Positions 12,483-64,000 of a DNA stretch of 64,000 nt are shown piece after piece. This DNA is from Macrostomum lignano. Its lineage: Eukaryota. The translations under genes were made by a program, and so were the position numbers. Within the stretch, counting starts at the first letter, position 1; the number at the start of each line of letters is the position of its first letter. The notes beneath the pieces were generated by a model that saw nothing but the letters and a program-made list of their open reading frames with translations, was not told the origin of the DNA and searched no databases. The stretch is from positions 375,693-439,692 of the forward strand of contig NIVC01000219.1 of NCBI GenBank assembly GCA_002269645.1. The letters run 5' to 3'.

Positions 12483-12509
12483 TCAAACAAGCTCCTCATC
12501 TCCCCGCAG

Positions 12510-13742
12510 GAGCCGATGCTGATTTCTCCTCTTCAGGCGCAGCAGCAGCAGCATTCGCTGGCCTCCGCCGCAGGTCACCTCAGCCCCTCCTCGCCGCCAC
12601 CACCCATGGCAGCGGCAGGCTACATGCCGGGCTATCTGCTAGATGAAGCTTGGAACTCGCCAGCTGGAGCCCAAGCCGCCGGAAGCTATTACAGTGCGGC
12701 CGCGGTGCCCCCGGGTTCGAATCCTGGCCAGCTGCACTATTATCAGCAGCAGCAACAGCAGGCCCATTGGATGCTGTCTGGCGGTCCTGGGTTCGCTTCG
12801 CCGATGCACCAGCAGCAGCAGCTGGCATTGTCAACCGGTCACTATGGCAACCAGCAGTCTTCGTCGGCTTCGCCAATTCGAACTTCGCCCCCGTCGCCAA
12901 GACAATCGCTAACGGCAATGACTTCGGCGTCGGCTGCTGCTGCTGGCAGTCAGAAACGGCAGCCGCCGCCCACAACCAGCCTGTGGGCTCTGCAGCAGCA
13001 GCAGCAGCAGCAGCAACCTCCCCCTCCGCCGCCTCCACCACCGCCACCGCCCTCTCAAACCAGCACCCCGGTTCGTCCTGGGCTTCGCAACCATCCACAG
13101 CAGCAGCAGCAGCAGCAGCAGCAGTTCTTCTCTCCTGCAGCCAGCCTCAATAATCCTCTGGACACTTCAGCAGCGGCAGGAGCCGCAGGCGCTAACACAG
13201 ACGATGGCACCTGGGTGACGGTGTTCGGGTTCCCGTCTGGCTCGGTCAGCTTCGTGCTGCAGCAGCTGGCTCAGTGCGGTCGCATCGAACGGCACACGGC
13301 TCCAGCTGGCGGCGGCGCCAACTGGGTGCACGTGAAGTTCCAGAACCGAGTGCAGGCTAGGCGGGCCCTGTGCCGCAATGGCCGGGTGCTCAGCGCCAAC
13401 TGCATGATCGGCGTGCAGCCCTGCCAGGACCCGGCCGCGGCAGCTGACACCTCGGTGCCGGCCGCCATCTCCGGTACGCCGCTGGCTGAGCAGAACCAGC
13501 AGCATCAGTCGAATTTGAACGCCACGGCAGCCAATCAGAGCGCCAACTGCTCGTCCATGCGCTCATTGGCTGTGAGCCGGCTGGGCACTCCGGCTGCCTC
13601 CGCTGCCGTAGCCGGGGTCGCCGCTGGAACTCCGAGGTCAACTAAGATTTCCGCTTCCACGTCCGCTGTTGATGGCAGTCGGGTGCTGAGAGAGAATCCA
13701 GGACTGCTCAATAAGGCCATCAGCTATATGTTCGGCTGGTGA
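12510..13742 (+). CDS. NUP35: Nucleoporin Nup35/Nup53 (MPPN-type RRM)
   Basis: N-terminal EPMLISP and YMPGYLL; RRM TWVTVFGFP...NWVHVKFQNRVQARRALCRNGRVLSANCMIGVQPC; C-terminal GLLNKAISYMFGW amphipathic helix. Acceptor ccgcag ends at 12509; first in-exon ATG at 12516. Confidence 0.92.
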   Translation, partial: EPMLISPLQAQQQQHSLASAAGHLSPSSPPPPMAAAGYMPGYLLDEAWNSPAGAQAAGSYYSAAAVPPGSNPGQLHYYQQQQQQAHWMLSGGPGFASPMHQQQQLALSTGHYGNQQSSSASPIRTSPPSPRQSLTAMTSASAAAAGSQKRQPPPTTSLWALQQQQQQQQPPPPPPPPPPPPSQTSTPVRPGLRNHPQQQQQQQQQFFSPAASLNNPLDTSAAAGAAGANTDDGTWVTVFGFPSGSVSFVLQQLAQCGRIERHTAPAGGGANWVHVKFQNRVQARRALCRNGRVLSANCMIGVQPCQDPAAAADTSVPAAISGTPLAEQNQQHQSNLNATAANQSANCSSMRSLAVSRLGTPAASAAVAGVAAGTPRSTKISASTSAVDGSRVLRENPGLLNKAISYMFGW

Positions 13743-15487: not shown

Positions 15488-18400
15488 ATGCTGTGGATTG
15501 CTGCAGTTGTAGCCATAGGTAAGTCGCTGTATTTTTATAACTACTGATTACATGTAGGTTATTCGATTGCCGCTCCAGTGCAGGTGGGTTTCACTAAAAC
15601 CTATTCTAGTGCTGGATGTACTTTTAACACAGGAGTGCTACGTGTGATTTAAGCATCCCTGTTACTTTAAGTATCCTTTATACATGTACCACTTAGGGTA
15701 CCCTGACACACTTCAAGCACACCTAACACACTTCAATCGCACCTGACATACTTAAAGCACACCTGACACACTTCAAGCACACCTCACACACTTAAAGCAC
15801 ACCTGACACACTTCAATCGCACCTGACATACTTAAAGCACACCTGACACACTTCAAGCACACCTCACACACTTAAAGCACACCTGACACACTTCAAGCAC
15901 ACCTGACACACTTCAAGCACACCTAACACACTTCAATCGCACCTGACATACTTAAAGCACACCTGACACACTTCAAGCACACCTCACACACTTAAAGCAC
16001 ACCTGACACACTTCAAGCACACCTGACACACTTCAAGCACACTTGGCACACTTCAGTCGCACCTGACACCCGTCAATCAAAAACCCATACAGCCCTGGCC
16101 TCAGTGCCCGGCGCCGCGCCCTACAAAAACCCCAACTGCGACGGCAACCGTCACGTGGTTGTGCACCTGTTCGAATGGCGCTGGAACGACATTGCGGACG
16201 AGTGCGAACGATTTCTCGGCCCCTACGGCTACTGCGGAGTGCAGGTGTCTCCCCCTAATGAGCACCGCATAGTGACCAGCCCCTACAGGCCCTGGTGGGA
16301 GCGCTACCAGCCTGTCAGCTACATCCTGGTCAGCCGGTCCGGAAATGAGCAGGAGTTCAAAAACATGGTGGAAAAGTGCAACCGCAATGGGGTTCGGTGA
16401 GGGCATTGCGATTGAACTTCCACATTGGCTTGACTTCTGCCTTTGAAGAAAGGAGAGTAGAGAGAGGAGAGTAGAGAGAGGAGAGTAGAGAGAGGAGAGT
16501 AGAGAGAGGAGAGTAGAGAGAGGAGAGTAGAGAGAGGGGAGTAGAGAGAGGACAGTAGAGAGATGATAGTAGAGAGAAGAGAGTAGAGAGAGGGGAGTAG
16601 AGAGAGGACAGTAGAGAGAGGAGAGTAGAGAGAGGAGAGTAGAGAGAGGAGAGTAGAGAGAGGAGAGTAGAGAGAGGAGAGTAGAGAGAGGAGAGTAGAG
16701 AGAGGGGAGTAGAGAGATGATAGTAGAGAGAAGAGAGTAAAAAGAGGAGAGTAGAGAGAGGGGAGTAGAGAGAGGAGAGTAGCCAGAGGGGAGTAGACAG
16801 AGGAGAGGACAGACAGAAGAGTAGAGATATGAGAGTAGAGAAATGAGAGATAAGAGTAGAGAAGACACAGGAGAGTAGATGTATAATGTGGATATTAACT
16901 CGTCTTAACGAGTCTTACGTCTTACGTATTAACTCGTAACAGGGGAAATCGTTAAACTAATCGGATTGTGAAAATAAAACTCAGATTCTGATCAATAAAA
17001 TCTGCCGATATGTATCGAAAGAGCAATAACTTGACCTCCACAGCATCTACGTGGACGCTGTCATCAACCACATGGCGGGCGTGGGCGTCAGCGGTCGCGG
17101 CACCGCAGGCTCCTATTACGACTCGGGTAGGCAGGACTTCCCCGGAGTGCCCTACAGCGACTGGGACTTCAACGGGCGCGGCCAGTGCTCCACCGCCAGC
17201 TTGAACATCGAGAACTATCACGACCCGGTGCAAGTGCGCAACTGCAGACTTGTGGGCCTGACTGACCTGCAGACTGGCAAGGACTATGTGCAGCGGAGCA
17301 TCGCCGGGTACCTCAATAAGCTGGTGAGGACTACTGTAGCATAACGGGTTGGGGAACAGGTGAATGGGGGAACGAATGACAGATGATCCGTGGAACAGGT
17401 GTGAACAGGGGAACAGGTGAACAGGTGAACGGGGGAACAGGTGAACAGGGAAACAGGTGAACAGGTGAACGGGGGAACAGGTGAACAAGGAAACAGGTGA
17501 ACAGGTGAACGGGGGAACAGGTGAACAGGGGAACAGGTGAACAGGTGAACGAGGAACAGGTGAACAGGGGAACAGATGAACAGGGGAACAGGTGAACAGG
17601 GGAACAGGTGAACAGGAAACAGGTGAACAGGGAAACAGGTGAACAGGGGAACAGGTGAACAGGTGAACAGGTGAACAGGGGAACAGGGGAACATGTGAAC
17701 AGGTGAACTGGGGAACAGGTGAACAGGTGAAAAAGGGAACAACAGGTGAACAGGGGAACAGGTGAACAGGGGAACAGGTGAACAGGTGAACAGGTGAACA
17801 GGGGAACAGGTGAACGGGGGAACAGGTGAACAGGGGAACAACAGGTGAACAGGGGAACAAAATACAGTGATCAGGCTAGAAGCGGACCAACAGAACCGAA
17901 ACTCGCCCATAAAAACCCGCAGGTGGACATCGGAGTTGCCGGCTTCCGCATCGACGCGGCCAAGCACATGTGGCCGGACCACCTCCGCGGCATTCTCGGC
18001 CGGGTGAACAACCTGAACTCGCGCTACTTCGGCACCGGCAAGAGGCCCTTCGTCTATCAGGAGGTCATCGACCTGGGCGGTGAGCCGATCAAGAACTCCG
18101 AGTACACCCCGATCGCCAGGGTCACCGAGTTCAACTATGGAGCCCACCTGAGCAGGGCCTTCAGCAAGCACTACCCGCTGAAGAACCTGCAGAACTTCGG
18201 CGAGCAGTGGGGACTCATCCACAGCAACGATGCCATGGGATTTATCGATAATCACGACAACCAGGTGATGGGCGTTCACGTGTGTCTAACAGTTTGCGAT
18301 TTTGTCTAACAGTTAGCGATTGTGTCTAACAGTTTGTGATTGTGTCTAACAGTAAGCGATTGTGTCTAACAGTTTGTGATTGTGTCTAACAGTTTGCGAT

Positions 18401-20061
18401 TGTGTCTAACAGTTAGCGATTGTGTCTAACAGTTAGCGATTGTGTCTAACAGTTAGCGATTGTGTCTAACAGTTTGCGATTGTGTCTAACAGTTTGCGAT
18501 TGTGTCTAACAGTTCGTTGTGTCTAACAGTTTGCGATTGTGTCTAACAGTTCGTTGTGTCTAACAGTTTGCGATTGTGTCTAACAGTTAGCGATTGTGTC
18601 TAACAGTTAGCGATTGTGTCTAACAGTAAGCGATTGTGTCTAACAGTTTGTGATTGTGTCTAACAGTTAGCGATTGTGTCTAACAGTTAACGATTGTGTC
18701 TAACAGTAAGCGATTGTGTCTAACAGTTAGCGATTGTGTCTAACAGTTAGCGATTGTGTCTAACAGTAAGCGATTGTGTCTAACAGTTTGTGATTGTGTC
18801 TAACAGTAAGCGATTGTGTCTAACAGTTTGTGATTGTATCTAACAGTTAGCGATTGTGTCTAACAGTTAGCGATTGTGTCTAACAGTTAGCGATTGTGTC
18901 TAACAGTTAGCGATTGTGTCTAACAGTAAGCGATTGTGTCTAACAGTTTGTGATTGTGTCTAACAGTTAGCGATTGTGTCTAACAGTTAACGATTGTGTC
19001 TAACAGTAAGCGATTGTGTCTAACAGTAAGCGATTGTGTCTAACAGTTTGTGATTGTATCTAACAGTAAGCGATTGTGTCTAACAGTAAGCGATTGTGTC
19101 TAACAGTAAGCGATTGTGTCTAACAGTTTGTGATTGTGTCTAACAGTTAGCGATTGTGTCTAACAGTTAGCGATTGTGTCTAACAGTAAGCGATTGTGTC
19201 TAACAGTTAGCGATTGTGTCTAACAGTTTGTGATTGTGTCTAACAGTTAGCGATTGTGTCTAACAGTTAGCGATTGTGTCTAACAGTTAGCGATTGTGTC
19301 TAACAGTTAGCGATTGTGTCTAACAGTTAGCGATTGTGTCTAACAGTTAGCGATTGTGTCTAACAGTGATTTTCCCTAAAGGATTAATCAGCATAAGTAT
19401 CTAACAGGTGTTACACAAGTATCTAACAGTGCTATCTAGGATGTCTAACAGCCGCAAAACCACTCCCAACTCCCCTCAGCGAGGTCACGGAGGTGGCGGC
19501 GCCATCCTCACCTTCCGCCAGTCGAAGATGTACAAAGCGGCGACAGCCTTCGCTTTGGCTCATCCGTACGGCTTCCTGAAGATCATGAGCAGCTACCACT
19601 GGGACCAGCGCATCGAGAACGGCAAGGACAAGAACGACTGGATCGGACCGCCTGCCTACGGAGACGGCACCACCAAGCCTGTGCCGATCAACCCCGACCT
19701 CACCTGCGGCGACGGCTGGATCTGCGAGCATCGTTGGCGTCAGATCTACGGCATGGTGAAGTTCCGGAATGTGGTGTCGGGCACCGGCCTGAACAACTGG
19801 TGGGACAGCGGCAGCCACCAGATCGCCTTCTCCAGAGGCAACCGCGGCTTCGTGGCCTTCACTCTGGGCGGCGACCTCAGGACCAGCATTCGGTCCGGCA
19901 TGGCTGACGGCAGCTACTGCGATGTCATCAGCGGCGCCAAGGTGAACGGCAGGTGCACCGGCAAGACTGTCAGCGTTAGCGGCGGCGGCTGGGTGAATGT
20001 GCAGCTCGGCCAGAGCGAGGACGACGCCGTGTTGGCCATTCACGCCGAGTCCAAGCTGTAG
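15488..20061 (+). CDS. AMY: Secreted animal-type alpha-amylase (GH13)
   Basis: Exons 15488-15518 (signal peptide [14 protein letters not shown]), 16093-16396, 17044-17323, 17923-18264, 19480-20061, all phase-consistent. Motifs [37 protein letters not shown] (catalytic D), QEVID (catalytic E), DNHDNQRGHG (catalytic D), WICEHRW, and a C-terminal beta domain. Confidence 0.96.
15700..16070. repeat. Minisatellite, 20 bp unit (cacctgacacacttcaagca)
   Basis: Amylase intron 1. Confidence 0.92.
16452..16870. repeat. Purine-rich 12 bp repeat (AGAGAGGAGAGT)n
   Basis: Amylase intron 2. Confidence 0.92.
17350..17860. repeat. 8-9 bp repeat (GGTGAACA/GGGGAACA)n
   Basis: Amylase intron 3. Confidence 0.92.
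18283..19430. repeat. Minisatellite, 20 bp unit (tgtgtctaacagttagcgat)
   Basis: Amylase intron 4. Confidence 0.95.
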
Positions 20062-52183: not shown

Positions 52184-52360
52184 AGTAGTAGGAGTTATGT
52201 GCACTCTGCCGCAGGAATTTCCGTGGGAAAACCACGGGCCTATAGTGTGTAAACATAGCGCCTATGTAAATGCATAGGTGGACTCTGCCGCAGGGAAAGC
52301 CATGGAAAAGCCATGGGGGCCACATCGGGTGGGCATGGGGGCCCGGTGAGATAAAAAAGC
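52184..52360 (+). repeat. Candidate left terminal inverted repeat of the Polinton
   Basis: Starts AGTAGTAG; GC-rich with direct repeats CTCTGCCGCAGG and hairpin CCGTGG-gaaaa-CCACGG; partner end not in the window. Confidence 0.3.
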
Positions 52361-52399: not shown

Positions 52400-52430
52400 C
52401 CCACCCGACTCCGCCTAGAAAGTATATAAG
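52400..52430 (+). promoter_or_regulatory. Candidate Pol II promoter (GC boxes CCACCC/CTCCGCC plus TATATAAG at 52423) for the PC4-like gene
   Basis: TATA element 72 nt upstream of the ATG at 52495. Confidence 0.55.
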
Positions 52431-52494: not shown

Positions 52495-53232
52495 ATGGAT
52501 CTCTGTGACGGCTTCAAAGTCCAAGTGCAAGAGTACGAGGGTCATCGCTTTATTGCAATCCGACGTTTCTTCTCCTCTGAAAGCGGGCTCAGAGCGGGCA
52601 TCCCTGGCTTTAACCTCAATACATACCAATGGGAGAAGTTGAAGCAGCTGAAACGCCAGCTTGTGCACTCGGCAGTCAATCGGCACAACGTCACAGTCAA
52701 GCTTGGCTTTGATAAACTCGTTGTGGTCAGCAGGGGTATCATCTGGCTGAAGCGCCTGCCGGAAGACTGTACAGAGGATTATCTGCGGCGGAACTCAGTG
52801 GCGCTGACTCCCCGTCTCTGGAAGTCTCTGGAAGAACTCTGGAAGAAGGCCGAGTGGATCGACAACGAGCTGCGAGAGAAGTCGGCGGAGAGTGAGTATC
52901 AGCTGGAGGCCGAGGACATCAAGCATGAGGGCCAAGAAACTCTGCCGGTCAGCGAAGAAGAAGAAGAAGAGGAGAAGAGGCTGCGCATCGTCGAGTCGGA
53001 CAATGCAACCAGCTCGCCTGTTCTGCCAGAGACTTCAGTCGGGCGCATACCGCAGCAAGACAGCGACCTGTCGCACGACCCACTGTGGTACCGGTTCCGT
53101 GCTGCTTCAGGGCTCGGCAACAGCGGCTGTCACAAACGAAAGCTTCCGTGGCCCCTGCGCAGGCAAAATGCAATCAAGTTGCCCAAAGTGATCAATGGTG
53201 GAGAGGATGGTGACGCAGAAAAAAGTGCTTGA
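52495..53232 (+). CDS. PC4/Sub1-like ssDNA-binding or coactivator protein, probably two tandem PC4 folds plus an acidic tail
   Basis: KVQVQEYEGHRFIAIRRFF...GIPGFNLNTYQWEKL matches the PC4 pattern; second unit ends NSVALTPRLWKSL. Confidence 0.72.
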   Translation: MDLCDGFKVQVQEYEGHRFIAIRRFFSSESGLRAGIPGFNLNTYQWEKLKQLKRQLVHSAVNRHNVTVKLGFDKLVVVSRGIIWLKRLPEDCTEDYLRRNSVALTPRLWKSLEELWKKAEWIDNELREKSAESEYQLEAEDIKHEGQETLPVSEEEEEEEKRLRIVESDNATSSPVLPETSVGRIPQQDSDLSHDPLWYRFRAASGLGNSGCHKRKLPWPLRRQNAIKLPKVINGGEDGDAEKSA

Positions 53233-53455
53233 TAAACTTTTTAAGTGACTATGCATGGACATTGCTATGTCATCTGTATTGATGTCTAACAGTTCTATTT
53301 ATCCAGCTTTTTCAGCTTATTCATTAATGTCCTATTGAATGAGCTCGTTTAAAATTATAAATAAAATAAAATAAACATCTCTCTCTCTATAATTATGTTT
53401 GTTTACTGGTGAACTTAAGAATGCAAAATGAGTTTAATTTTTTCTCTAATTAAAA

Positions 53456-54523
53456 ATGGAAAAGATTTACTTTAACCCTGAGCAGCCAGCAAGCTTTTCT
53501 GGCTGCAATAAATTTATTAATGAAGTTCGCACGCAGGGTATCCGAGTGAGTGAAAAAGCTGCGAAAAACTGGCTTAACGATCAGACAGTCTACACATTAC
53601 ATAAGCCAGCAAGGAGGAATTATCCGAGGGCCCCAATCATAGTTCGAAGCATTGATGACCAATGGGAGTTGGATCTGGTGGAGATGATTCCTTTTTCCAA
53701 GTATAATAACGGCTACAGGTATATTCTAACATGCATTGATGTGCTGTCCAAGTACGGATGGGCGAGGGCATTAAAGAACAAGTATTCTATTGAAGTGAAG
53801 TCGGCATTCGAGAGCATATTAAGAAGTTTAAAGCGGCAACCGCGCACTGTTCGCACTGATCAGGGGAAAGAGTTTATCAACTCTACTTTTCGCCAATGCT
53901 GTATGGAAAGGGGAATCCTGGCATTCCCAACCAACAGTGAGCAGAAGGCGGCTGTTATTGAACGATGGAACCGAACTTTAAAGAGCAAAATGTGGCGCTA
54001 CTTCACCCATAATAGCACTCTGCATTGGCTTGATGTGCTGCCTAAGCTAGTGAAGTCCTACAACAAAACTTACCACAGAAGCATACGAATGGCACCAACG
54101 AATGTCAGCCAGGAGAACGAGTCCGAGGTCTGGATGAGCCTATATGACGGGAAAGCGATTGAAACTGTGGAAAAGCTGGGAAAGCCAAAGTTCAGCGAAA
54201 ACCAGTCTGTGCGGATTTCCAATGCACCCAGGCTTTTTAAAAAAGGGTACAAGGCCAACTGGAGCGAAGAAGTGTACACGGTGATGTCCAGAGCTCCAAA
54301 GCATTATCCCTACATGTACAAGATAAAAGACATGAAAGGAGAAGAGATTCGTGGGCTTTTTCACGAGCATGAACTGCAGGCCGTTCCGGAGTCGCAGCGG
54401 CTGTATGTGATTGAAAAGATTTTGAAGACTGAGAAGCGGCGGGGGAAGATCCGATATCTGGTCAAGTGGGCCGGCTACGACTCCACTGATTGGGTGGATG
54501 AGAAGGACTTAAGAAAAGTGTAA
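53456..54523 (+). CDS. Retroviral-type (rve/DDE) integrase with a C-terminal chromodomain
   Basis: QWELDLVEM, TVRTDQGKEF, IERWNRTLK (D-D-E intact); YVIEKIL...YLVKWAGYD chromodomain. Confidence 0.96.
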   Translation: MEKIYFNPEQPASFSGCNKFINEVRTQGIRVSEKAAKNWLNDQTVYTLHKPARRNYPRAPIIVRSIDDQWELDLVEMIPFSKYNNGYRYILTCIDVLSKYGWARALKNKYSIEVKSAFESILRSLKRQPRTVRTDQGKEFINSTFRQCCMERGILAFPTNSEQKAAVIERWNRTLKSKMWRYFTHNSTLHWLDVLPKLVKSYNKTYHRSIRMAPTNVSQENESEVWMSLYDGKAIETVEKLGKPKFSENQSVRISNAPRLFKKGYKANWSEEVYTVMSRAPKHYPYMYKIKDMKGEEIRGLFHEHELQAVPESQRLYVIEKILKTEKRRGKIRYLVKWAGYDSTDWVDEKDLRKV

Positions 54524-54553: not shown

Positions 54554-55363
54554 ATGAGAAGCATCATTATTAGCAGCGAAAATGCTGAAGGTACTCCTAC
54601 TGACTTTCATTTTCACCTGCCTTCACCTATTTATTTGGATCGAAATGTGGACTATGAGGCAGGTCTGGCTGAAATCCATCTGCCTGCTGCATGGTTCAAT
54701 GTTGACGAGCCTTACTGCTTCACTGTCTCAGATGGTAGAGAGCATGAGGCCTTGGTTCTTCAACCCGGACGCTTTGCTAGAGTGGAGGAGTTGGTGGAGC
54801 GCATGAATGAGCTGTTGACCAACTCTGAGTCATTGTTCTTCGATGCAATGAGTGATAGGGAGTCTGAACTGGAAGCTGAAGAGTCTGGTTTAACGGGGCG
54901 AAGCAGCACTAGAGATATTGGCATAAAGTTTGAGATCCAAGAATTGAGAACGGTAGTGCTCAACAACACGGCTCGAGCAGAATTATTCCTTCCATCAAGT
55001 AAAATTCTGCAGTGGCTGGGATTCGGAAATCAGTCCGTGAAAATCCCACCTGGGCGCCAAGTTTCCACGTACCGCATTGGCTGCCCGCCCACCAATCTGA
55101 TCAACGTGCATTGTAGCATTGTGGAGTCAACTAATTGCAACGGGAACTCTCTGCTGCGAACTGTGAACATGAATCCTGAAGCCGGATGGGGAAGCTACTG
55201 GAGCAAAGTGTTTAAGAAAACAGTCTTCTTCCCCATTCAGAAAACAAATTTTCTACACAGCCTTCGAGTTCAACTGCGAGACATTTTTGGCTTCTCACTG
55301 ACTGCTCATAGCGGCAGCCCTGTTCTGCTCACAATTCTGATACGTGAGAGACCAATGCAATGA
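54554..55363 (+). CDS. Polinton minor capsid (penton-like) protein
   Basis: SIIISS...TPTDFHFHLPSPIYLD..YEAGLAEI, INVHCSIVE, SLLRTV, LRVQLRD...LTILIR pattern; typical position. Confidence 0.78.
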   Translation: MRSIIISSENAEGTPTDFHFHLPSPIYLDRNVDYEAGLAEIHLPAAWFNVDEPYCFTVSDGREHEALVLQPGRFARVEELVERMNELLTNSESLFFDAMSDRESELEAEESGLTGRSSTRDIGIKFEIQELRTVVLNNTARAELFLPSSKILQWLGFGNQSVKIPPGRQVSTYRIGCPPTNLINVHCSIVESTNCNGNSLLRTVNMNPEAGWGSYWSKVFKKTVFFPIQKTNFLHSLRVQLRDIFGFSLTAHSGSPVLLTILIRERPMQ

Positions 55364-55776
55364 ACTATCAGCAGCTGATTCGGCAGTATTCAGGGACTCG
55401 GACGGGAAATGAAAAGTCCATGCTCTATGGCTGCGGGAGTTTTCCTGGAATAATGACTTACCAGCCTCCTCCAGCACCTTCCATAACATCATCATCATCA
55501 TTAGCATCAAAGCCTGTACAAACCAGCAGTAGCAGCAGAAGCAATCGTACGAGTAATAGAAACATAGGAAATCAAGGACAGGCTAAAAAGGTGAATAAGA
55601 AGCAGGTGCGCATGAAGAAGAAGAAAAAAAGTGGCGAAGCACGCAAAACGAGCAAGGTCAGAACAAGCAAGCAACCTAAGAAAAGAACGACTAAAACACA
55701 GGCCAAGAAAACAGGCAAAAGAAACCAAAAAGTGAGCAAAAATACTGTGAAGCGTGTTCTAGACTCACTCTCATAG
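55360..55776 (+). CDS. Small Lys/Arg-rich protein, putative DNA-condensing core protein
   Basis: Very basic C-terminal half; LYGC-G fits the adenain cleavage consensus; lies between the capsid genes. Confidence 0.6.
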   Translation: MNYQQLIRQYSGTRTGNEKSMLYGCGSFPGIMTYQPPPAPSITSSSSLASKPVQTSSSSRSNRTSNRNIGNQGQAKKVNKKQVRMKKKKKSGEARKTSKVRTSKQPKKRTTKTQAKKTGKRNQKVSKNTVKRVLDSLS

Positions 55777-55778
55777 CA

Positions 55779-57054
55779 ATGGCTTACGGATTCAACCCGA
55801 GACTCGATTTGTTCAAGTCCCCCGTGCTGCAGACTGCTATTGAAAAATCCACATACGTTGATATTCACCCTGTGAACTCTATTGCTACTAACTCACCTAT
55901 TGAATTCGACTGCCATCCATCGGCTGATGAGTACACTGATCTGCTGAGCTCATTCCTGTATATTCGCTGTCGCCTAGTCCGGCTTGGCGGGGCTTTGATG
56001 AGGGAGGAGGTTCGGAATGCCGATGGAGTTGTCACTGAGCGCAGAGACAGTGGGGTGCATCCAGAAAACTTTGTCCTATCTACGGCATTCTCAGATGTAA
56101 TCGTGAGCATCAACCAGCGCATTGTCTCAGGCGGAGACCAGCTCTACCCCTACCATGCCTACCTAAAAGCTCTCATGAGCTCATCCGATGCTCAGCAGTT
56201 AAATTTCTACCCCGCCGGAACCCGAAACTGCTGCTGAGGGGCATGCCGAGAGCCACAGGGAGTCCCGCTGGGTGGAGTATGCGGGACCACTGCTCAGCGA
56301 CATCTTCCAGTGTCCTGTTCTGCTGCTGAACAATTTACACCTGCACATCAAGCTGATGCCCAGCGATGCTGCATTTGCCATCCGAACCCCAGATGAGAAC
56401 AACACAGCCTACCGAATGGAAATCTCCCACTGCATTCTGAACCTGCGCCGAGTCAAAGTGGCGCCTCACATCAGCCTAGCGCATGAGCAGGGACTTACCA
56501 ATCAGAACGCACTTTACCCCATCGAGCGAACCGAAATGCAAAACTTCATTCTACCACAGGGAATTCAGTCAAAAAACATTGAAGGATTCACCCATGGCAA
56601 ACTGCCTAAGTTCGTTATGCTGGTCTTCGTGAACCACCGAGCCTTCAATGGCCATCACCATTCCAGCCCCTTCGAGTTCCAGAGCTTCAACCTCAGCCAG
56701 CTAGCACTAAAGAAAGGTGGTGAAGCCATGTGCCACGCTGCATTTGCACCTGAGAATAATTCATTCGTGAGAGAGTACTTGCACTACCTGAAAAGCTGTC
56801 AGTCTGCCAGCCCTAGCAACTCGGTTCCGTGGGTCCCCTACCAGTTGTTCTCCAACGGCAACACAGCTTTCGCATTCGATCTCACGCCTGAGGGAGCGGC
56901 CCTGTGGTACGGACAGAAGGAGGGCAATTTGCGGCTGGAGATTCGCTTCCGACAGGCCCTGGAGGAGCCTGTATCTCTGATTGTTATGTGCCTGTATGAC
57001 TCACTGATTGAGGTCACCAAGCACAGGGAGATTCTGCTAGATTTTCCATCCTAG
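55779..57054 (+). pseudogene. Double jelly-roll major capsid protein, split by a frameshift near 56220
   Basis: RLDLFKSPVLQT...SPIEF...YTDL, LSDIFQ..LLLNN, HGKLPKFVMLVFV, PFEFQSFNL, FAFDLTP, GNLRLEIRF, LIEVTKHREI; ORFs 55779-56237 and 56272-57054. Confidence 0.9.
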
Positions 57055-57077: not shown

Positions 57078-57617
57078 ATGGATGCTTTTCAACTGCTTAA
57101 ACTGGCTAAAAGCTTTTTGCCACAAAATAATTGTTTAATTATTGTCTTGAATTCAATAAATAAAACATCTTATGCTTTAAACTTTATTCAGCGAGCAACT
57201 CTCAAAAGAAATTTATCTCGATGTAAGTTTATTTTCTTTCTGCTTCCGTACAGCTCGTGATTCGGTCACTGGGTGGTTTGTTATGCTAATAAGGAGAATT
57301 CCATAGAACTCTTTAACTCTCTGGGCTGGGACTCAAGCACTTTAGACATCATTCACGGAGCACTGAAATCCTTTTGGTATTCTCCATTCTACTTACGTAG
57401 CAATGTGAATCGAATTTAGAGCTGCGACTCTGCTAAATGCGGTTTGTTCTGTCTCTTGTTTGTCTATCAAAAGTTTCGTTTCAAGCGCTCGTTTGAGTGG
57501 GTTCTGCGGCACCTCCATGCAAATCAGCAGAGCCACTTGAATGAAAGAATTCTGCAAAGGTTTGAGAGTTGCTTAAGAAAAAGAATTTTAATTAGAATTT
57601 TAAAATCAAGGATTTAG
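57078..57617 (+). pseudogene. Adenain-like cysteine protease with two in-frame stops
   Basis: Manual translation gives ...PYSS*FGHWVVCY...ELFNSLG...RI*SCDSAKCGLFCLLF, with catalytic His, an Asp-to-Asn change, a stop at the oxyanion Gln position and catalytic Cys. Confidence 0.85.
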
Positions 57618-57628
57618 CTCAACAGGCG

Positions 57629-58282
57629 ATGGAAACGCGTGAGCGGATAAACCGTTATGATGTGCGCCTGCGACAGGGAAGCTGCATGATTGTCAGCGGG
57701 CCTACAAATGCAGGAAAGACAACCTTCGTGAAACATCTGATCCAGTACAGGGATGTCATGTTTGATGTGAAGCCAGGGAGAGTTCTGTGGTACTATGGGA
57801 TTTCACAAGCAGCACACTCTGAGCTGAGCAGTCTCGGCGTGCACCTGCAGCAGGGATTTCCCAGCAGTATCGAGACCGCACTGAGACCCAATGACCTGGT
57901 TGGATTTGATGACCTGATTGAAGAAACTTCCAATTCTGCTGCTATGCGAAATGTTTTCACAGGAATTGCCCATCATTTGCCCTGCTTTCTGGTTATGCTG
58001 ACCCAAAATGTATTTTTTAAAGGGAAGGAGTTGAGAACAATGAGTCTGAATGCGATGTACTTTGTGATCATGAAGAACCCCAGAGACCAGCTGCAGATTG
58101 CAGCGCTGGACAGGCAGTGTTTTGCTGAGAAGCCCGGCTTTCTGCTGTCAGTGTTCAAGCACGTGACATCGCACGGCAGGGGAGCCTACCTGCTCCTGGA
58201 TTTTCACCCTTCCACCCCTGATGAGCTGCGCGTCCGGGCTCGAATCCTGCCCAATCATCGACCCCACCTTTTTTACACTTAA
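57629..58282 (+). CDS. Genome-packaging ATPase (A32/FtsK-HerA family)
   Basis: Walker A SGPTNAGKTT, Walker B FDDL, HH...LTQN, RTMSLNAMY, KNPRD. Confidence 0.95.
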   Translation: METRERINRYDVRLRQGSCMIVSGPTNAGKTTFVKHLIQYRDVMFDVKPGRVLWYYGISQAAHSELSSLGVHLQQGFPSSIETALRPNDLVGFDDLIEETSNSAAMRNVFTGIAHHLPCFLVMLTQNVFFKGKELRTMSLNAMYFVIMKNPRDQLQIAALDRQCFAEKPGFLLSVFKHVTSHGRGAYLLLDFHPSTPDELRVRARILPNHRPHLFYT

Positions 58283-58329: not shown

Positions 58330-58644
58330 ATGAAAATGGAAACATTCGACTCACATGAAAGTTTGTTTGATATTCTCGCCTCACCAAAATATTCCATCAG
58401 CTTTAAACGCTTGTTGATCAGAGCGGGTCCAAAAGCCGTACGTGAATTTCTCATTGAGGCCTGCTACAACCTATTGCAAAACACTTTGTCGTTCTCACTC
58501 ACTGAAAAGGCAGCGCTGGTGAAGCAAAAGCAAATAATCCGCAAAATTTCTACACATCGAAGAACTGCGGATCTGCTAAATACGGGTTTTATCCAAAATT
58601 CTCTACATTCTAATAAAGCTAGTGAAGAAAAAGAAACAAAATGA
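58330..58644 (+). CDS. Conserved small Polinton protein, function unknown
   Basis: KRLLIRAG..VREFLIEACYNLL..LTEKAALVKQKQIIRKI pattern recalled from animal Polintons. Confidence 0.6.
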   Translation: MKMETFDSHESLFDILASPKYSISFKRLLIRAGPKAVREFLIEACYNLLQNTLSFSLTEKAALVKQKQIIRKISTHRRTADLLNTGFIQNSLHSNKASEEKETK

Positions 58645-59363
58645 ATAAGTTCTCAGAAATGGTTCTGATCCCCAAGTCAGAATACGATATGCTCACACAG
58701 AATTTGAAGCCAGTTGAGTCTGAACTCGACACTGCTGTGAGATATGCGCAGAGGAAATGCAATGATATTTTGCTTGCCGAGGATTGCCCAGACGATGTGA
58801 AAGCTGCCATGTACCATGATGCGATGAAGAATTTGCTGGCCAAGCGCAAGCGGACTGGAAAGGATGGTGTGGTAACTGCGAGAGATGCCAAGATGCTGAA
58901 AACTGATATTGCACCAAGCAGCTGGGGGGAAAAGATCACCCAATCCGTGCCGCAGAAGTTTAAAGCGAGAGCCCGCAGTCTATGGGCCATCCTATCTGGC
59001 AATCCCTCTCTGATTCGGGTGTCCGAAAATGGCGAGGCGCAAATTTCTGGGAAGACAATACCCTCCTCAAACATCCTGGATTTGTTTCACAGTGCGGTGA
59101 GGGATTCGAAATGTGCCAGCGAGCCGGTGGGCTGGAGTGAGTTTGTCTCATTGCTTCAAGACAAAAAGCTTTACATCCCAGCTTCGGCTATAGGAAAGTC
59201 AGTAAGGCAGCTAATTTCTAAACCTGCTGTTTCTCCACAGGCCGCCCCTGCTCATCATATAGTTAAGGGATTCGGGAGTGGGAGAGCCTGGCTACAGCTG
59301 ACCAGGAAAAAAAACTATTTAAGAAGGGGAACTGTGTCGGCTTCCCGACATCTGGCATCTTAA
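58641..59363 (+). CDS. Conserved Polinton protein, function unknown
   Basis: VPQKFKARARSL, GEAQISGKTIPSSNILDL, PVGWSEF, IPASAIG pattern; ATGA overlap with the upstream ORF. Confidence 0.65.
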   Translation: MNKFSEMVLIPKSEYDMLTQNLKPVESELDTAVRYAQRKCNDILLAEDCPDDVKAAMYHDAMKNLLAKRKRTGKDGVVTARDAKMLKTDIAPSSWGEKITQSVPQKFKARARSLWAILSGNPSLIRVSENGEAQISGKTIPSSNILDLFHSAVRDSKCASEPVGWSEFVSLLQDKKLYIPASAIGKSVRQLISKPAVSPQAAPAHHIVKGFGSGRAWLQLTRKKNYLRRGTVSASRHLAS

Positions 59364-59375
59364 CACCATCCGATC

Positions 59376-60221
59376 ATGAACTATATTGACTTCCAAGGCT
59401 TCCCACGCGAGAGATCGAGCAGAGATTTCGTTGTGAAGGAGCTGGCCATTGCTCAAGTCCGGGCAGGCAGTTACCATATCACTCATCACGTGTACGCCTC
59501 TCCGTTCTCATGGGAGAGAATCTCACCTGAGATGCAGGTGCATTACAGAAAGCTCTCAAAGAATTTTCATCATTTCAAGTGGACAGATGGATCCCGACCG
59601 TACATGCATTTGGCTAATGACATTCTAAACATTGCTTACGGCCCCACATGGACAAGCGGGGTGAAGAAGTCCATCTTTCTGACTGAGCTGCTTGGCAGAC
59701 AGGTGTACAACTTAGAGGATTTGGGATCACCTTTGATTCAAGCATCTGATACTGGTTGCGCAGTGAAAAATGTATTACTGTACTATAACTGGCTGAAGCC
59801 GAAGTTCTGTATCAACTTAAGAAGCGAGGTGTGCCCGCACCACTCAAAAGCTCGCAAAGACAGCACCACTGACAGAAAGGACTCTCTAAATGAGTACACC
59901 TGCGACAGCCCTGCGAGTGACCAATCTGGTCGGCGGCGTGGATCTGAGACTGGCTGGAGGCAGGGGTGCTCAGTTGCCTCTGCGGGAACTGGCTCTCAGC
60001 ATGGCTCATGTCATCTATCGTCCCGTCTGGCCCCGAGTGCTCATCAAGAGGATGCGGAATCCCAGAGTGACTCTATTGCTCTATCCGACTGGACAACTGA
60101 GTATCTGTGGCGCCCGGAGCTACTCGGCCTCAGTCAGGGCCGCTCGTCGCTTCGTGGCTATGCTGCATCGCAGAGTGCCTGCTCAACTGCTGCCTCGTCA
60201 ATCCATTTGTGTGAGGATTAA
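59376..60221 (+). CDS. DnaQ/DEDD-like 3'-5' exonuclease homolog (recognisable to about residue 140; tail overlaps the TBP ORF)
   Basis: YIDFQGF...FVVKELA, HHFKWTDG, VYNLEDLGSP, CAVKNV..YYNWL. Confidence 0.65.
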   Translation: MNYIDFQGFPRERSSRDFVVKELAIAQVRAGSYHITHHVYASPFSWERISPEMQVHYRKLSKNFHHFKWTDGSRPYMHLANDILNIAYGPTWTSGVKKSIFLTELLGRQVYNLEDLGSPLIQASDTGCAVKNVLLYYNWLKPKFCINLRSEVCPHHSKARKDSTTDRKDSLNEYTCDSPASDQSGRRRGSETGWRQGCSVASAGTGSQHGSCHLSSRLAPSAHQEDAESQSDSIALSDWTTEYLWRPELLGLSQGRSSLRGYAASQSACSTAASSIHLCED

Positions 60222-60456
60222 AACAATTACTGCTCATGGAAAGATCGATTTACGCACTGCTCTTTCCCTCGCAAGCCTTGTAAACGCCCTCCCAAACGCT
60301 CAGTATGAACCCGAGTCATTTTCTGCTTTGATCTGTAAGCTTAGATTCTGTAAATGCATACTTTTTCACAACGGCTCTTTTGTTTTAAGTGGTGCGAAGT
60401 CAATGAACATGTTACAGTATGATTTTTCTCTCCTTCTCAGCATTGTACGCCTGTAA
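59890..60456 (+). CDS. TATA-binding-protein (TBP)-like protein encoded by the Polinton
   Basis: Two TBP half-repeats: VTNLVGGVDL...IKRMRNPRVTLLLYPTGQLSICGARSYSASVRAARRF and ...YEPESFSALICKL...ILFHNGSFVLSGAKS. Intact 188-aa ORF, no introns, no N-terminal extension. Confidence 0.9.
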   Translation: MSTPATALRVTNLVGGVDLRLAGGRGAQLPLRELALSMAHVIYRPVWPRVLIKRMRNPRVTLLLYPTGQLSICGARSYSASVRAARRFVAMLHRRVPAQLLPRQSICVRIKTITAHGKIDLRTALSLASLVNALPNAQYEPESFSALICKLRFCKCILFHNGSFVLSGAKSMNMLQYDFSLLLSIVRL

Positions 60457-61084: not shown

Positions 61085-64000
61085 CTAAAGCTGCAACTTT
61101 CGCTGCTTTGACCTGTCATCGGGTTTGCATACCGGCTGGCATTCTTCATCTAGAAGGCGCTGCTGCTCCTGTAGCTGCAAAAGTCGAAAGTGTCCAAAAG
61201 GAAGGCTTGAGTTGGGTCCTATCCAGGCTCTTTTGTCTTCCCAGATGCTTAGAGCCAACTTCTGTTGCTCGAGCGTGAACAATCTGTGGTTGATGCTACC
61301 GATGCGGCGAACAGTAAGTGATAGCTGAGTTGAGTCCCTGTAAACTCGCAGGTAGTCTTCGTGGCTCAAATTCCGCTTGACAACGCACGCTTGAATGCCT
61401 TTCGCCTTCTTTTTGTCAGTTGATGACTGCTTCGTTAGGAATGAGTACAACTTGGGCCGCAGCAGAATCCACTCTTCATTTTGTACACCAGCCGACTCAT
61501 CCTTAATGCAGCCCAGCTTTGCTTTTAAGCGATCGGAGTGAAGTAAATCGTCCTTGGGGAAGTTGGACGTGTCTAGAAGATCATGGGCAATCATTAAAGG
61601 CAGGGCATCCTTCCGAACGTCAATGTTTTCCAAGCAAAGAAACAACAAATCGGTGTCCCCGCCACAAACTCGAACACGCCCACCATCACGCTCCAGCAAT
61701 GGCTTCAGCTTGTCATACAGCAGCTCGTACATCACGATCTTTGATAGGTCAAGTACGCATTGCCCTATTGGAATAGGTCGATCCAGAGTCACTTGAGCCT
61801 TCTGTAGCTCAAATATGCTAAGGCTGTCAGTAATGATTGTAAATGACTTTAAATTAGGATTGGCAGCAAAGATTCTGGCCTTGTTGGTAGAATTGATAAT
61901 TCTAATGTCTCGTCTTTTGCGTACGTTCTCCATTGTCTTGCCAAAGAGACTGTTGTTCTTTAATTTATAGAAATCCTTTTCAAATTCATTTTCAGCCTTC
62001 GATCGCTTGTCACTATTCTTGGCGATATATGCGGCAAAAACTGGCTCTTGGTAGAACTCAATCATCGTGTGCACCTTGATCAGCTTCAAGCCATGTGCCA
62101 GATAGAACTTTAGCGCGGAAGAGTGCAACACATAAGCCATTTTGTTGTGACAGGTAAGGAGCAGTTTCTCAGAACCACGATATTCTTCACAATTACTTAA
62201 CTCGGAAAGCTCATGCTCCTCCTGCTGCTGATGTTCACGATGTTTTTGATGCAGCACATTCCAAAGCTGCTTCATGTGTGGCGGAAAGTCGTCAAATCTG
62301 GCTTTCCGTTTTTCGGGCGCGAACGGCAGATCTGCGGTACCATCATGAATTGTGGTTGGATAGTAAAGGTCGGCCTCAACGAGATAACCAACGGGTCCAT
62401 TTTCATTCAAGCCCAAAAATCTCTCTTCCGTCCAGCTGTTAACTTCTCCCTCACTAAGCCAACGGAAGCCTTTGACTGGGAGTGGCATTGTGAGAGCGTG
62501 GCCATAGAGATTGTTTGCGTCTACTGCTAGCAAACTTTTGGTTGGTTGACGATTAGCCGCTTCAGTGCTTTCAGCCATACTTGCCTGCACATGATGAATG
62601 TTGACAAAGCACATGCCACCACGAATGCCTCTCTCAAAGGTTCGATACATTTTGTTGTCGCTCAAAAGCTGAATGCCATTGCCACAAAGTGACTTAAGGG
62701 CGGAAGCGAATGAAAGCCCAGGTGTTGATACAAAATGGGCCGGATCCAGTCCATCTTCTCGGAGGCTGAGCCGGCGGAAATTCTCAAAAATATCCGCAAG
62801 TTGACGGATATCCAACTCAAGGTAGCAGAGCATATAATGACGCAAGTTAACCGCATCGAATTCGCGCCATGCTTTTTGAGCATGCTCATACTCTGCTAGG
62901 CTACATTCACAGTTGTTCAATCGATTGAAAAATTGCTCTCGCTAGGCAGTTGCGTATCACTGAGTACATGACTACCAGAAAGATAGTCGTACGGGAATAC
63001 TCCCTTTGAAAAAAGGACTTCATTGCTTACGTTTGGGAAATGCTCACGCATTCGAGCTGTCACTACGCATTCATCTTTCGGCAAAGTTGCAATTAGTTGT
63101 GCAATGCTACTGTGTAGAAACTGCAAGCTGTCGATAAACTGAAGTGTGAAGTTTAGTGGCCTCATCTTACCATCCTTTTCAAATTCATCGATTTTGAACT
63201 CAACCCGCATTGATAGGTATGCCTCGGCTGCTTGCGGGATGATGCTGATTTTCCAGCCAGGCATATCCCCAAGGGCGGTTGAGAAGATGAGGTGCAGATC
63301 ATAGCCACGCAAGTTGTGTAGAACAACTGGTAGAAAGCGGCGCTTTAGTCTGGCGAGTTTGTTGCATGAACTGCAGGCAGCACCACGGAACGCACCAGTC
63401 AAGTGATCGTGGTCCCAGTGCTTCTCACTAGAAGAGAAAATTCTTTCTTCACAATAGTGGCAGCAAACAGACTCATTAAATTTTCTAATGTCTGATTCAT
63501 GTTTAACGGCTGGCTTGTGACTGAACTCCTTGTTCCAGTCATAAATTTTTCGAGCCAGCTGCTCCAGAGAAATCAAAAATTCCTTGACGCATGCGTGTGC
63601 ATCAGAACTGCAAAACAGAGCTACATCCTCGCAAGGCCTACGCAACTGGCTAATTCCCTCTCGGGAGATTGTGATGTAGCCTGCAGCAGCTGGCACGTGC
63701 TCTGTTAGCTTGGTGATTGATGGTGTATTATCTATACAGCAGTAGTTGGAACGTTCAGTGCTTCAAAGTCGGCGTAGACGACAAAAGGAGGGCTCAGTGT
63801 CTTCTCCCAGGACTTGAAGCGCAGGAAGCAACTTTCTGGCTCAGGCATAATCTCTTTGATGGAGATCGAATCTTGGAGATTGCAATGCACTTGGTGTGAT
63901 TGTAAGATCTTTTTCGGTTCGAAAATTACTCAAGCATCGTTCACACACCTTCTTTCGATTTCGAAAACCTCCTTTGGCTGTTGAACAACCGATCGAGGCT
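61085..64000 (-). pseudogene. Protein-primed family B DNA polymerase with C2H2 finger, exonuclease and endonuclease VII-like insertion; several frameshifts; N-terminus beyond the window
   Basis: CERCLSNF..H..HC, VYADFEAL, CHYC..DHDHLTGAFRGAACSSCN, KGVFPYDY, DANNLYG, KLKNNSLFGKT, GDTD, KKKAKGI, EDKR; frameshifts near 62920, 63735, 63900 and 63960. Confidence 0.95.

What the first reader, a model, noticed from the sequence alone, without database searches (positions are those of the whole stretch)
59890..60456. A Polinton/Maverick encodes its own divergent TATA-binding protein
Seen: an intact, intronless 188-aa two-repeat TBP fold embedded in the viral gene cluster, with no RNA polymerase gene in the visible part of the element. 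Compared with recalled eukaryotic TBP, the second repeat keeps both DNA-kinking Phe residues (ESF, LFHNG) and the acidic stirrup YEPE used for TFIIB contact. The first repeat instead has W and Y at the Phe positions and a diverged stirrup, and the second-repeat Asn is Thr. Established: TBPs occur in NCLDVs that also carry their own RNA polymerase; TBP is not a core Polinton gene. Inference: this TBP could recruit host TFIIB/Pol II to element promoters with altered TATA specificity, or act as a competitor of host TBP. I cannot confirm novelty without a search.
Basis: partly seen in the sequence, partly recalled or inferred. Interest (0 to 1): 0.92.

Follow-up and report, generated by a model that had tools for sequence, protein, structure and literature searches.

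The report
Polinton-encoded TBP with altered promoter box
A virus-like Polinton element in many copies in this flatworm genome carries its own altered TATA-binding protein, and most of its virion-type genes, plus that protein's own gene, sit behind an unusual TATA-like box, which suggests a one-protein switch that turns on late genes using the host's machinery.

Summary
Confirmed: 59890-60456 is an intact 188-aa two-repeat TBP (Pfam E 3.7e-23; AlphaFold pLDDT 92; TM about 0.8 to cellular TBP) inside a Polinton. There are 93 near-full matches in this genome, dN/dS is about 0.1, and a second Polinton family here carries a TBP about 36% identical. (C/T)TTAAGAA lies 41-73 nt before six element genes, including TBP itself (10 of 10 copies), while the two end genes carry canonical TATA boxes. 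The protein keeps both TFIIB-contact glutamates but has replaced Pro191, reported to exclude non-T at TATA position 1; the box starts with C. Best reading (0.55): host TBP fires the end genes, and the element's TBP reads the box and recruits host TFIIB/Pol II for late genes and its own gene. Binding and expression are untested. Corrections: Pro48 rather than Trp47 aligns to Phe99, the gene overlaps an upstream ORF by 332 nt, and this copy is broken and cut by the contig end. TBP in such viruses appears in print as a figure-legend label (Starrett 2021). This scan found Polinton TBPs before on other DNA, one with a shared box.

The parts
52184..52335 (.). Left terminal inverted repeat; the element starts with AGTAGT
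   Evidence: Window 52177-52335 matches the opposite end of a near-identical copy at 96%, and the match to that copy's same end begins at 52184. AGTAGT ends with 6-bp flanking duplications in 4 of 5 other copies.
52423..52429 (+). Canonical TATA box (TATATAA) before the PC4-domain gene; candidate early promoter
   Evidence: TATATAA or TATAAAA at -76 to -84 in 6 of 7 other copies. Function inferred.
52495..53232 (+). PC4-domain gene, 245 aa
   Evidence: PF02229 E 3.3e-5, 23.7 bits, just under the cut-off of 25
53414..53421 (+). CTTAAGAA box, 42 nt before the integrase ATG
   Evidence: within 170 nt of the ATG in 5 of 6 other copies
53456..54523 (+). Retroviral-type integrase with chromodomain, 355 aa
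   Evidence: PF00665 E 6e-12; PF00385 E 2.6e-5
54508..54515 (+). CTTAAGAA box, 46 nt before the 269-aa gene
   Evidence: 5 of 5 other copies
54554..55363 (+). 269-aa ORF, putative minor capsid protein (label by position only)
   Evidence: No Pfam or PHROG match; conserved in place across copies
55211..55218 (+). TTTAAGAA box, 149 nt before the basic ORF and putative major capsid gene
   Evidence: same spacing in 6 of 6 other copies
55360..55776 (+). 138-aa basic ORF
   Evidence: conserved in place
55779..57054 (+). Putative major capsid gene (label by size and position), in two pieces in this copy
   Evidence: Two frames here; a single frame of about 427 aa in other copies; no Pfam, PHROG or PDB sequence match
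57078..57600 (+). Adenovirus-type protease region, broken in this copy
   Evidence: Stops in all frames; the homolog in another copy matches PF00770 at E 9e-5
57572..57579 (+). CTTAAGAA box, 57 nt before the ATPase
   Evidence: 9 of 9 other copies
57629..58282 (+). P-loop ATPase, putative packaging ATPase, 217 aa
   Evidence: Walker A GPTNAGKT visible; only weak P-loop hits; Pox_A32 found no match in this genome
58278..58285 (+). CTTAAGAA box, 52 nt before the 104-aa ORF
   Evidence: 7 of 7 other copies with changed flanks
58330..59363 (+). 104-aa and 240-aa ORFs of unknown function
   Evidence: No family match; syntenic counterparts in family B. The 240-aa ORF has no box of its own in 0 of 9 copies.
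59316..59325 (+). Hybrid box TATTTAAGAA, about 58 nt before the 281-aa ORF
   Evidence: TATTTAAGAA in 5 and TATATAAGAA in 4 of 10 other copies
59376..60221 (+). 281-aa ORF: conserved head of about 165 aa (DEDD-like by recalled motif only) and a 110-codon tail overlapping TBP in another frame
   Evidence: Overlap is 332 nt in 8 of 8 copies measured. The tail is kept free of stops but its sequence drifts. Atlas look-alikes are unnamed arthropod proteins, with Maelstrom as a 0.88 lead.
59816..59823 (+). CTTAAGAA box, 74 nt before the TBP ATG, inside the upstream ORF
   Evidence: present in 10 of 10 other copies at 64-79 nt
59890..60456 (+). Element-encoded two-repeat TBP, 188 aa
60490..60495 (+). 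AATAAA 34 nt after the TBP stop; candidate poly(A) signal
   Evidence: Sequence; inference
61085..64000 (-). [quoted passage not shown]
   Evidence: PF03175 E 1.2e-13; pieces; a 1205-aa frame in another copy; the contig ends at the window end

Best explanation
The gene is a working late-transcription factor of the Polinton, an altered-specificity TBP. SHOWN: a TBP fold under purifying selection in a fixed place in two Polinton families; two promoter-like classes, canonical TATA before the two end genes and (C/T)TTAAGAA before integrase, the putative capsid genes, the ATPase and the TBP gene; both TFIIB-contact glutamates kept; a changed DNA-binding face shared by both families. INFERRED: (1) host TBP starts the end genes (PC4 domain; the ORF ahead of pPolB); (2) the element's TBP binds CTTAAGAA as an 8-bp TATA variant, tolerating C at position 1 because Pro191 is replaced by Ser; (3) it recruits host TFIIB and Pol II, since the element has neither; (4) because its own gene carries the box, it feeds back on itself and acts as an early-to-late switch. 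How the first molecules are made is not explained.
For: Box statistics: TTAAGAA lies in the -100..-16 window of 6 of 11 genes against 0.81 expected (P 5e-5), and the best 7-mer of random position sets reached 6 in 2 of 3000 trials. All 5 CTTAAGAA of the 64-kb window lie before element ATGs, none on the other strand; 5 observed against a shuffled mean of 0.23, maximum 2 in 300. Sense 57, antisense 3 over 9 related arms, which are not independent. The box is kept while its flanks change. It tracks starts rather than stops: the TBP box is 74 nt before the ATG and about 400 nt before the stop of the ORF it lies in. Family B (TBP about 36% identical) has related boxes, CTATAAGAA before two genes of the one long locus read and CTATAAAAG before TBP in 3 of 4 copies. 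One copy of a third, distant Polinton-like family with no TBP match lacks TTAAGAA in the 90 nt before its putative capsid, ATPase and integrase genes. Residues: E140, E142, F144, F159, Y65, N12, V14, K111, T112 and K155 are invariant in 9 of 9 aligned relatives. Pro191 is S, T or N in all 21 element-type rows. PMC1636458 (passages) says Pro191 is proposed to exclude any base but T at position 1, that G is accommodated at positions 3 and 6, and that changes at I194, V203 and L205 alter position-2 specificity; K155 sits at V203. PMC7221094 (passages) names the two glutamates as the TFIIB contacts and says they have diverged in the viral TBPs it studied, several of whose viruses have their own TFIIB; here they are kept and no TFIIB is found. 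Selection: dN/dS about 0.10 in both halves against a 77%-identical copy.
Against: The link between protein and box is a correlation in two related families of one genome, with a single, very distant negative control. The TBP gene sits behind the box it would need to read, and its ATG is buried in the upstream ORF, so first synthesis is unexplained; the earlier scan note on another genome reported the opposite arrangement (TBP gene without the box). Family B's boxes (TATAAGAA, TATAAAAG) should suit host TBP. The 240-aa ORF (0 of 9), the protease (0 of 5) and pPolB have no box within 170 nt. No consistent initiator stands out 25-38 nt after the box. The first kinking Phe is lost (Pro or Trp), so DNA bending may be weak. 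The residue after E142 (Leu189 in cellular TBP) varies among S, T, L, M and I. TAAG is also the core of baculovirus-type late promoters (recalled).
Confidence: 0.55

Rival explanations
1. The element TBP reads the box, but not through ordinary stepwise TBP-TFIIB-Pol II assembly. It needs an element-encoded partner (the overlapping upstream ORF, the 104-aa or 240-aa protein, or the PC4-domain protein), as herpesvirus TBP mimics need viral partners.
For: The 104-aa, 240-aa, 281-aa and TBP genes form a block kept in order in both families. The overlap frame is kept open by selection in both. The first repeat has lost F99 and has a remodelled stirrup. KSHV ORF24 pre-assembles with ORF34 and Pol II (PMC12529657 abstract).
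Against: The TFIIB glutamates are invariant. The protein is a bare 188-aa TBP core with no extra polymerase-binding domain.
Confidence: 0.17
2. The box is read by something else (host TBP/TRF2, another host factor, or the polymerase of a helper virus using a TAAG-type initiator), and the element TBP has a different target.
For: The host has its own TBP and a TRF2-like paralog. Family B's boxes are near-canonical. Virophages and Polinton-like viruses are described as depending on giant viruses (search listing). TAAG late initiators are known from baculoviruses (recalled).
Against: CTTAAGAA breaks the position-1 rule proposed for Pro191-bearing TBP, and the host TBP has that Pro. The element has canonical TATA boxes, AATAAA signals and an integrase, which fit nuclear Pol II transcription.
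Confidence: 0.15
3. The protein is a decoy that binds host TFIIB or TBP regulators (Mot1, NC2, TAF1) and damps host transcription or defence, without sequence-specific promoter recognition.
For: The TFIIB stirrup is kept while the first-repeat stirrup and F99 are lost. The protein is very basic, pI 11.3 against 9.8 for host TBP.
Against: The DNA-facing residues have changed to a set that is invariant across families only about 36% identical, which implies a specific DNA ligand. A decoy does not explain the box.
Confidence: 0.1
4. A captured host TBP gene carried as a passenger and decaying.
For: An AU test does not reject a clade with host TBP (p 0.195). Host TBP is also intronless. Some copies are broken.
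Against: dN/dS is about 0.1; 92 of 93 near-full matches have no stop; identity to host TBP is 29%; position is fixed in two families.
Confidence: 0.03

Closest known systems
Cellular TBP (PF00352; human 1cdw, yeast 1ytb, Pyrococcus 1ais) and the host's own TBP (L035)
   Same: Two-repeat saddle (TM 0.80-0.84); F190, F207, an aromatic at F116, N69, V71, E186 and E188 kept
   Different: 24-29% identity; no N-terminal extension; F99 to P (or W), Q68 to T, V122 to S, T124 to C, Q158 to K, N159 to T, V161 to T, P191 to S, V203 to K; encoded by a mobile element in many copies
Beta/gamma-herpesvirus TBP mimics (KSHV ORF24; PMC12529657 abstract read, PMC7498053 search listing only)
   Same: A viral TBP-like protein that would direct host Pol II to a non-canonical late-promoter box. 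This is what the element TBP most likely works like.
   Different: ORF24 is a large multidomain protein that pre-assembles with Pol II and ORF34, and a section heading of that paper calls its model incompatible with direct TFIIB binding. The Polinton protein is a bare TBP core that keeps the TFIIB glutamates.
TBP-like proteins of large DNA viruses (PMC7221094 passages; poxvirus VITF-3, PMC12917281 abstract; BFVD hits)
   Same: Virus-encoded TBP fold; structural hits in BFVD at E 1e-11 to 1e-5 and 8-19% identity
   Different: That paper finds the TFIIB-contact positions diverged and co-evolving with viral TFIIB, and VITF-3 works with a viral polymerase. This element has no TFIIB or polymerase and keeps the host-type glutamates.
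Polintons/Mavericks/adintoviruses and MELD viruses (Starrett et al. 2021, PMC8502044)
   Same: pPolB, rve integrase, protease, ATPase, terminal repeats, 6-bp duplication. [quoted passage not shown]
   Different: That legend is the paper's only mention of TBP or TATA in its main text; the figure was not available, so which virus carries it is unknown to me. No promoter class or mechanism appears in the section I read.
Yeast altered-specificity mutant TBPm3 (PMC1636458 passages)
   Same: Changes in the C-terminal repeat near I194/V203/L205 that shift recognition of the 5' end of the box
   Different: Laboratory mutant reading TGTA; here natural changes (V203K, P191S) co-occur with a CT start

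Membership tests
TBP family (PF00352) | Two tandem TBP repeats forming a saddle | tested here: met
   Pfam 2 stretches, 81.6 bits; model and Foldseek
TBP family (PF00352) | Four intercalating phenylalanines (F99, F116, F190, F207) | tested here: not met
   F144 and F159 kept; F116 is Y65; F99 aligns to P48, or to W47 with a shift
TBP family (PF00352) | Two C-terminal stirrup glutamates that contact TFIIB | tested here: met
   E140 and E142 invariant in 9 of 9 rows and in all 21 element-type rows
TBP family (PF00352) | Binds and bends a TATA-type box | not testable with these tools
   Only a co-occurring box was shown
TBP family (PF00352) | Physical binding to TFIIB | not tested
Host TBP/TRF2 paralogs | Nests within the cellular TBP or TRF2 clade | tested here: inconclusive
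   Element TBPs form their own long-branched clade, SH-aLRT 96-98 in quick trees, but a clade with host TBP is not rejected (AU p 0.195)
Polinton/Maverick | Protein-primed family B polymerase | tested here: met
   PF03175; adjacent to TBP in 9 of 10 other copies fetched
Polinton/Maverick | Retroviral-like integrase | tested here: met
   PF00665 E 6e-12
Polinton/Maverick | Terminal inverted repeats and 6-bp target-site duplication | tested here: met
   Inverted repeats of 145-674 bp in 5 of 6 copy pairs compared; duplications in 4 of 5 copies; spans 12.1-17.1 kb in 4 copies
Polinton/Maverick | Adenovirus-type protease | tested here: met
   PF00770 E 9e-5, over cut-off, in another copy; broken in the window copy
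Polinton/Maverick | A32-like packaging ATPase | tested here: inconclusive
   Walker A motif present; Pox_A32 gave 0 matches among 150 of 375 candidates scored
Polinton/Maverick | Double and single jelly-roll capsid proteins | tested here: inconclusive
   No Pfam, PHROG or PDB sequence match; not folded; labels rest on size and position
Herpesvirus TBP mimics (ORF24/BcRF1/UL87) | Large protein with TBP-like and further DNA- and polymerase-binding domains | tested here: not met
   188-aa bare core
Large-DNA-virus TBP/TFIIB/RNA polymerase systems | Cognate viral TFIIB and RNA polymerase in the same genome | tested here: not met
   A TFIIB profile found nothing under E 0.6 in 11 element loci; ORF list of one end-to-end copy

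The most novel reading that the evidence does not exclude
Some animal Polintons run the smallest viral late-transcription system yet described: a single bare TBP, re-tuned to read a box that host TBP reads poorly, plugged into host TFIIB and Pol II. Because its own gene lies behind that box and its start codon is buried in an upstream frame that selection keeps open, it would form a self-latching switch between a silent integrated state and virion-gene expression, with TBP face and box co-evolving between Polinton lineages.
Probability: 0.3. Interest if true: 0.88.

Novelty: new variant of a known kind. Interest (0 to 1): 0.72.

Why it matters
How Polintons time their genes, and whether animal Polintons can run a virus cycle without a helper virus, is open. 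An element-encoded TBP with a matching box gives a direct test: map transcript starts, and measure binding of element and host TBP to the box. If right, small integrating DNA viruses reached the herpesvirus solution (own TBP, host Pol II) with one 188-aa protein. It would also supply a natural altered-specificity TBP-promoter pair for studying TATA recognition, in a laboratory flatworm that holds two such families.

Tried and rejected
Expression: no RNA holder listed, and no reads were laid, so expression and transcript starts are untested. Relatives with genomic context elsewhere: the TBP alignment in IMG/VR gave 35 pattern matches and 0 confirmed; the putative capsid protein gave 2 and 0; metagenome contigs gave 14 loci at 24-39% identity, and the 5 I read had no Polinton gene. 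The unnamed relatives P0003-P0005, P0010, P0041 and P0170-P0174 lie on contigs of 3 kb or less whose context I could not fetch. Fold of the upstream ORF head: single-sequence model pLDDT 41, not searched further. A second control family (L064, L065) held only polymerase remnants and was useless. Patikoglou 1999 was not held, so residue rules come from PMC1636458. The careful 134-row tree did not finish; both trees are quick trees. The script stopped before the family B dN/dS, which was not computed. Considered and rejected: the box as a poly(A) or stop signal (it tracks starts; the TBP box is about 400 nt before any stop of its host ORF); the box as a splice acceptor or branch point (no pyrimidine tract before it and no consistent AG after it); in-frame upstream-ORF/TBP fusions (P0007, L037 and open frames of 358-391 aa) as the real gene, since they are a minority and any frameshifting indel in the overlap could produce them.

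Full report
1. Observation. The ORF at 59890-60456 (+) is a 188-aa protein without stops. It matches Pfam TBP twice (E 3.7e-23) and solved archaeal and eukaryotic TBPs. It folds as a TBP saddle (pLDDT 92; the alignment included cellular TBPs) with TM about 0.8 to human, yeast and archaeal TBP. Against the host TBP and a profile of non-element TBPs (yeast numbers are recalled labels), the second repeat keeps F190, F207, E186 and E188. The first kinking Phe aligns to P48, with W47 one residue earlier; a one-residue shift cannot be excluded.

2. Context. The element begins at 52184 with AGTAGT and a terminal repeat. Then follow a PC4-domain gene, an integrase with chromodomain, a 269-aa ORF, a basic ORF, a putative major capsid gene, a protease region, an ATPase, ORFs of 104, 240 and 281 aa, TBP, and a convergent pPolB. 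The capsid labels rest on position and size only. This copy has broken capsid, protease and polymerase frames (mutation and assembly error cannot be told apart) and is cut by the contig end. Other copies have inverted ends, 6-bp duplications in 4 of 5 cases and spans of 12-17 kb. Database names place the closest homologs in the flatworm Macrostomum lignano.

3. Copies and selection. The genome search gave 152 matches from 150 of 230 candidates scored; 93 are near full length at 76-100% identity and 92 of those have no stop. The assembly may hold duplicated haplotypes, so these are not copy numbers. All 10 other copies fetched had element genes beside TBP, 9 with pPolB. Against a 77%-identical copy, dN/dS is 0.066/0.656 in the first 110 codons and 0.28/2.8 in the rest. 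A search with a cellular TBP found the host TBP, a TRF2-like gene and a second Polinton family. Family B has 24 near-full TBP matches, about 36% identity to this protein, and the same gene block. Unnamed relatives of both types occur in Logan, ENA and JGI data on contigs too short or unreachable for context. In quick trees the element TBPs form one long-branched clade apart from host TBP (SH-aLRT 96-98), but a clade with host TBP is not rejected (AU p 0.195), so the origin is open.

4. The promoter box. An earlier scan note on another genome (e1-7879962, unchecked) reported a Polinton TBP with a shared TATAAAC box, and I looked for one here because of it. All five CTTAAGAA of the 64-kb window lie 42-74 nt before element ATGs (integrase, 269-aa ORF, ATPase, 104-aa ORF, TBP), and TTTAAGAA lies before the 281-aa and the basic ORF. 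TTAAGAA is upstream of 6 of 11 genes against 0.81 expected, and the best 7-mer of random position sets reached 6 in 2 of 3000 trials. Across other copies the box is kept while flanks change: TBP 10 of 10, ATPase 9 of 9, 104-aa ORF 7 of 7, basic ORF 6 of 6, 269-aa ORF 5 of 5, integrase 5 of 6. It is absent before the 240-aa ORF (0 of 9), the protease (0 of 5) and pPolB. The two end genes instead have canonical TATA boxes (PC4 6 of 7; the ORF ahead of pPolB 6 of 6 rows). The 281-aa ORF has a hybrid, TATTTAAGAA or TATATAAGAA, in 9 of 10 copies. Family B shows CTATAAGAA and, before TBP, CTATAAAAG. One copy of a distant TBP-less family lacks the box before its structural genes, a weak control.

5. 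Fit of protein to box. Read as an 8-bp TATA variant, CTTAAGAA departs from TATAAAAG at positions 1, 2 and 6 (and has A at 8). PMC1636458 (passages) states that the C-terminal repeat contacts the 5' half, that Pro191 is proposed to exclude non-T at position 1, that G fits at positions 3 and 6, and that I194/V203/L205 changes alter position 2. Here Pro191 is Ser (Asn in family B) and V203 is an invariant Lys, while host TBP keeps both. Q158K, N159T and T124C are shared by both families, with V161 and V122 each Ser or Thr. PMC7221094 (passages) identifies the two glutamates as the TFIIB contacts and reports them diverged in the viral TBPs it studied; here they are invariant and the element has no TFIIB. 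This fit is inference from residues; no binding was measured or modelled.

6. The overlap. The 281-aa ORF runs 332 nt into TBP in another frame (8 of 8 copies; 389 nt in 2 of 2 intact family B copies). Its tail drifts in sequence, yet stops are avoided (the region was bounded by the observed stop, and one family B copy with an earlier stop was left out). One reading is that this keeps TBP from being translated off upstream transcripts, so that it depends on its own box. That is speculation, and a short overlap would do as much.

7. Mechanism. Most likely (0.55): host TBP starts the end genes; the element TBP reads the box, recruits host TFIIB and Pol II, and drives integrase, virion-type genes and itself. 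Rivals: it needs an element partner (0.17); the box is read by a host or helper factor (0.15); decoy (0.10); passenger (0.03). The weak points are the unexplained first synthesis, the single distant control, and the lack of expression or binding data.

8. What is known. It works most like herpesvirus TBP mimics (PMC12529657, abstract and section headings) but is not one. It differs from large-DNA-virus TBP systems in lacking a viral TFIIB and polymerase (PMC7221094 passages; PMC12917281 abstract). Starrett et al. 2021 list a TBP-like gene in the legend of their Figure 5 (PMC8502044: passages, section 3.4, and one supplement file searched with 0 hits; preprint 10.1101/697771: passages; figures not seen). 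Library searches pairing Polinton or Maverick with TBP, TATA or promoter terms (listings only) showed no paper devoted to a Polinton TBP or its box. Term searches of four surveys' main texts found no TBP or TATA (10.64898/2026.06.19.733378, 10.64898/2026.10.13.758929, PMC11161782, PMC10748475). Their supplements, Repbase and subscription journals were not seen and may list such genes. This scan noted Polinton TBPs on two other genomes, none by place or sequence here; those notes are unchecked and are not independent support.

9. Verdict. A real, selected, Polinton-encoded TBP with a conserved non-canonical box before late-type genes and its own gene. It is a new variant of a known kind (a viral TBP steering host Pol II) and is directly testable. 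Interest 0.72.

Noticed in passing
window 59890-60456 against L003, L011, L034: The TBP gene is a mosaic: 95-100% nucleotide identity over the first 300 nt and 70-87% after. pPolB is 58-65% identical in copies whose ATPase is 97% identical. A recombination point seems to lie between the two repeats, so the second repeat travels with the polymerase arm.
   Followed up: partly
window 59890-60221: The upstream ORF's frame is kept free of stops across the first TBP repeat: 0 of 13-16 at-risk third positions are T in each of 8 family A copies, against 35-39% at other positions (P about 0.001). Family B gives 0 of 12-13 in 3 copies (P about 0.013; a fourth copy with an earlier stop was left out). 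The tail's sequence still drifts. Unexplained.
   Followed up: partly
L037-L044 (family B): A second Polinton family with its own TBP: 24 near-full matches at 85-100% identity, the same gene block and overlap frame. Its helix 2 is acidic where family A and host TBP are basic (approximate alignment). In the one long locus read, pPolB lies upstream on the same strand as the structural genes.
   Followed up: partly
L062, L063 (family C): An AT-rich Polinton-like element with no TBP match. Several of its ORFs have TATAAA or TAAAA directly against the start codon, which recalls promoters of cytoplasmic large DNA viruses (recalled) and may point to a helper-dependent element.
   Followed up: no
G000: At least two further groups of pPolB-bearing elements (open frames near 867 and 1478 aa) outside the TBP-linked families.
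   Followed up: partly
L035:510-1166 (-), L036:629-1600 (+): Host TBP is intronless with a short N-terminus (218 aa). A TRF2-like paralog is also present, each at three places in the assembly.
   Followed up: partly
L017:2578-4062: A 494-aa ORF with no Pfam match between the terminal repeat and pPolB, behind a canonical TATA box and very variable between copies (25-67% identity). pPolB has no box of its own.
   Followed up: no
window 47267-50080: A PiggyBac-type transposase fragment (PF13843) and a GIY-YIG-bearing, Penelope-like remnant lie just left of the Polinton (the Penelope label is recalled).
   Followed up: no
window 27757-34138 (-): Two tandem copies of an RWD-RING-IBR (RNF14-like, label recalled) ubiquitin ligase gene; host genes for Nup35 (12471-13742) and an alpha-amylase (about 17072-20061) also lie in the window.
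   Followed up: no
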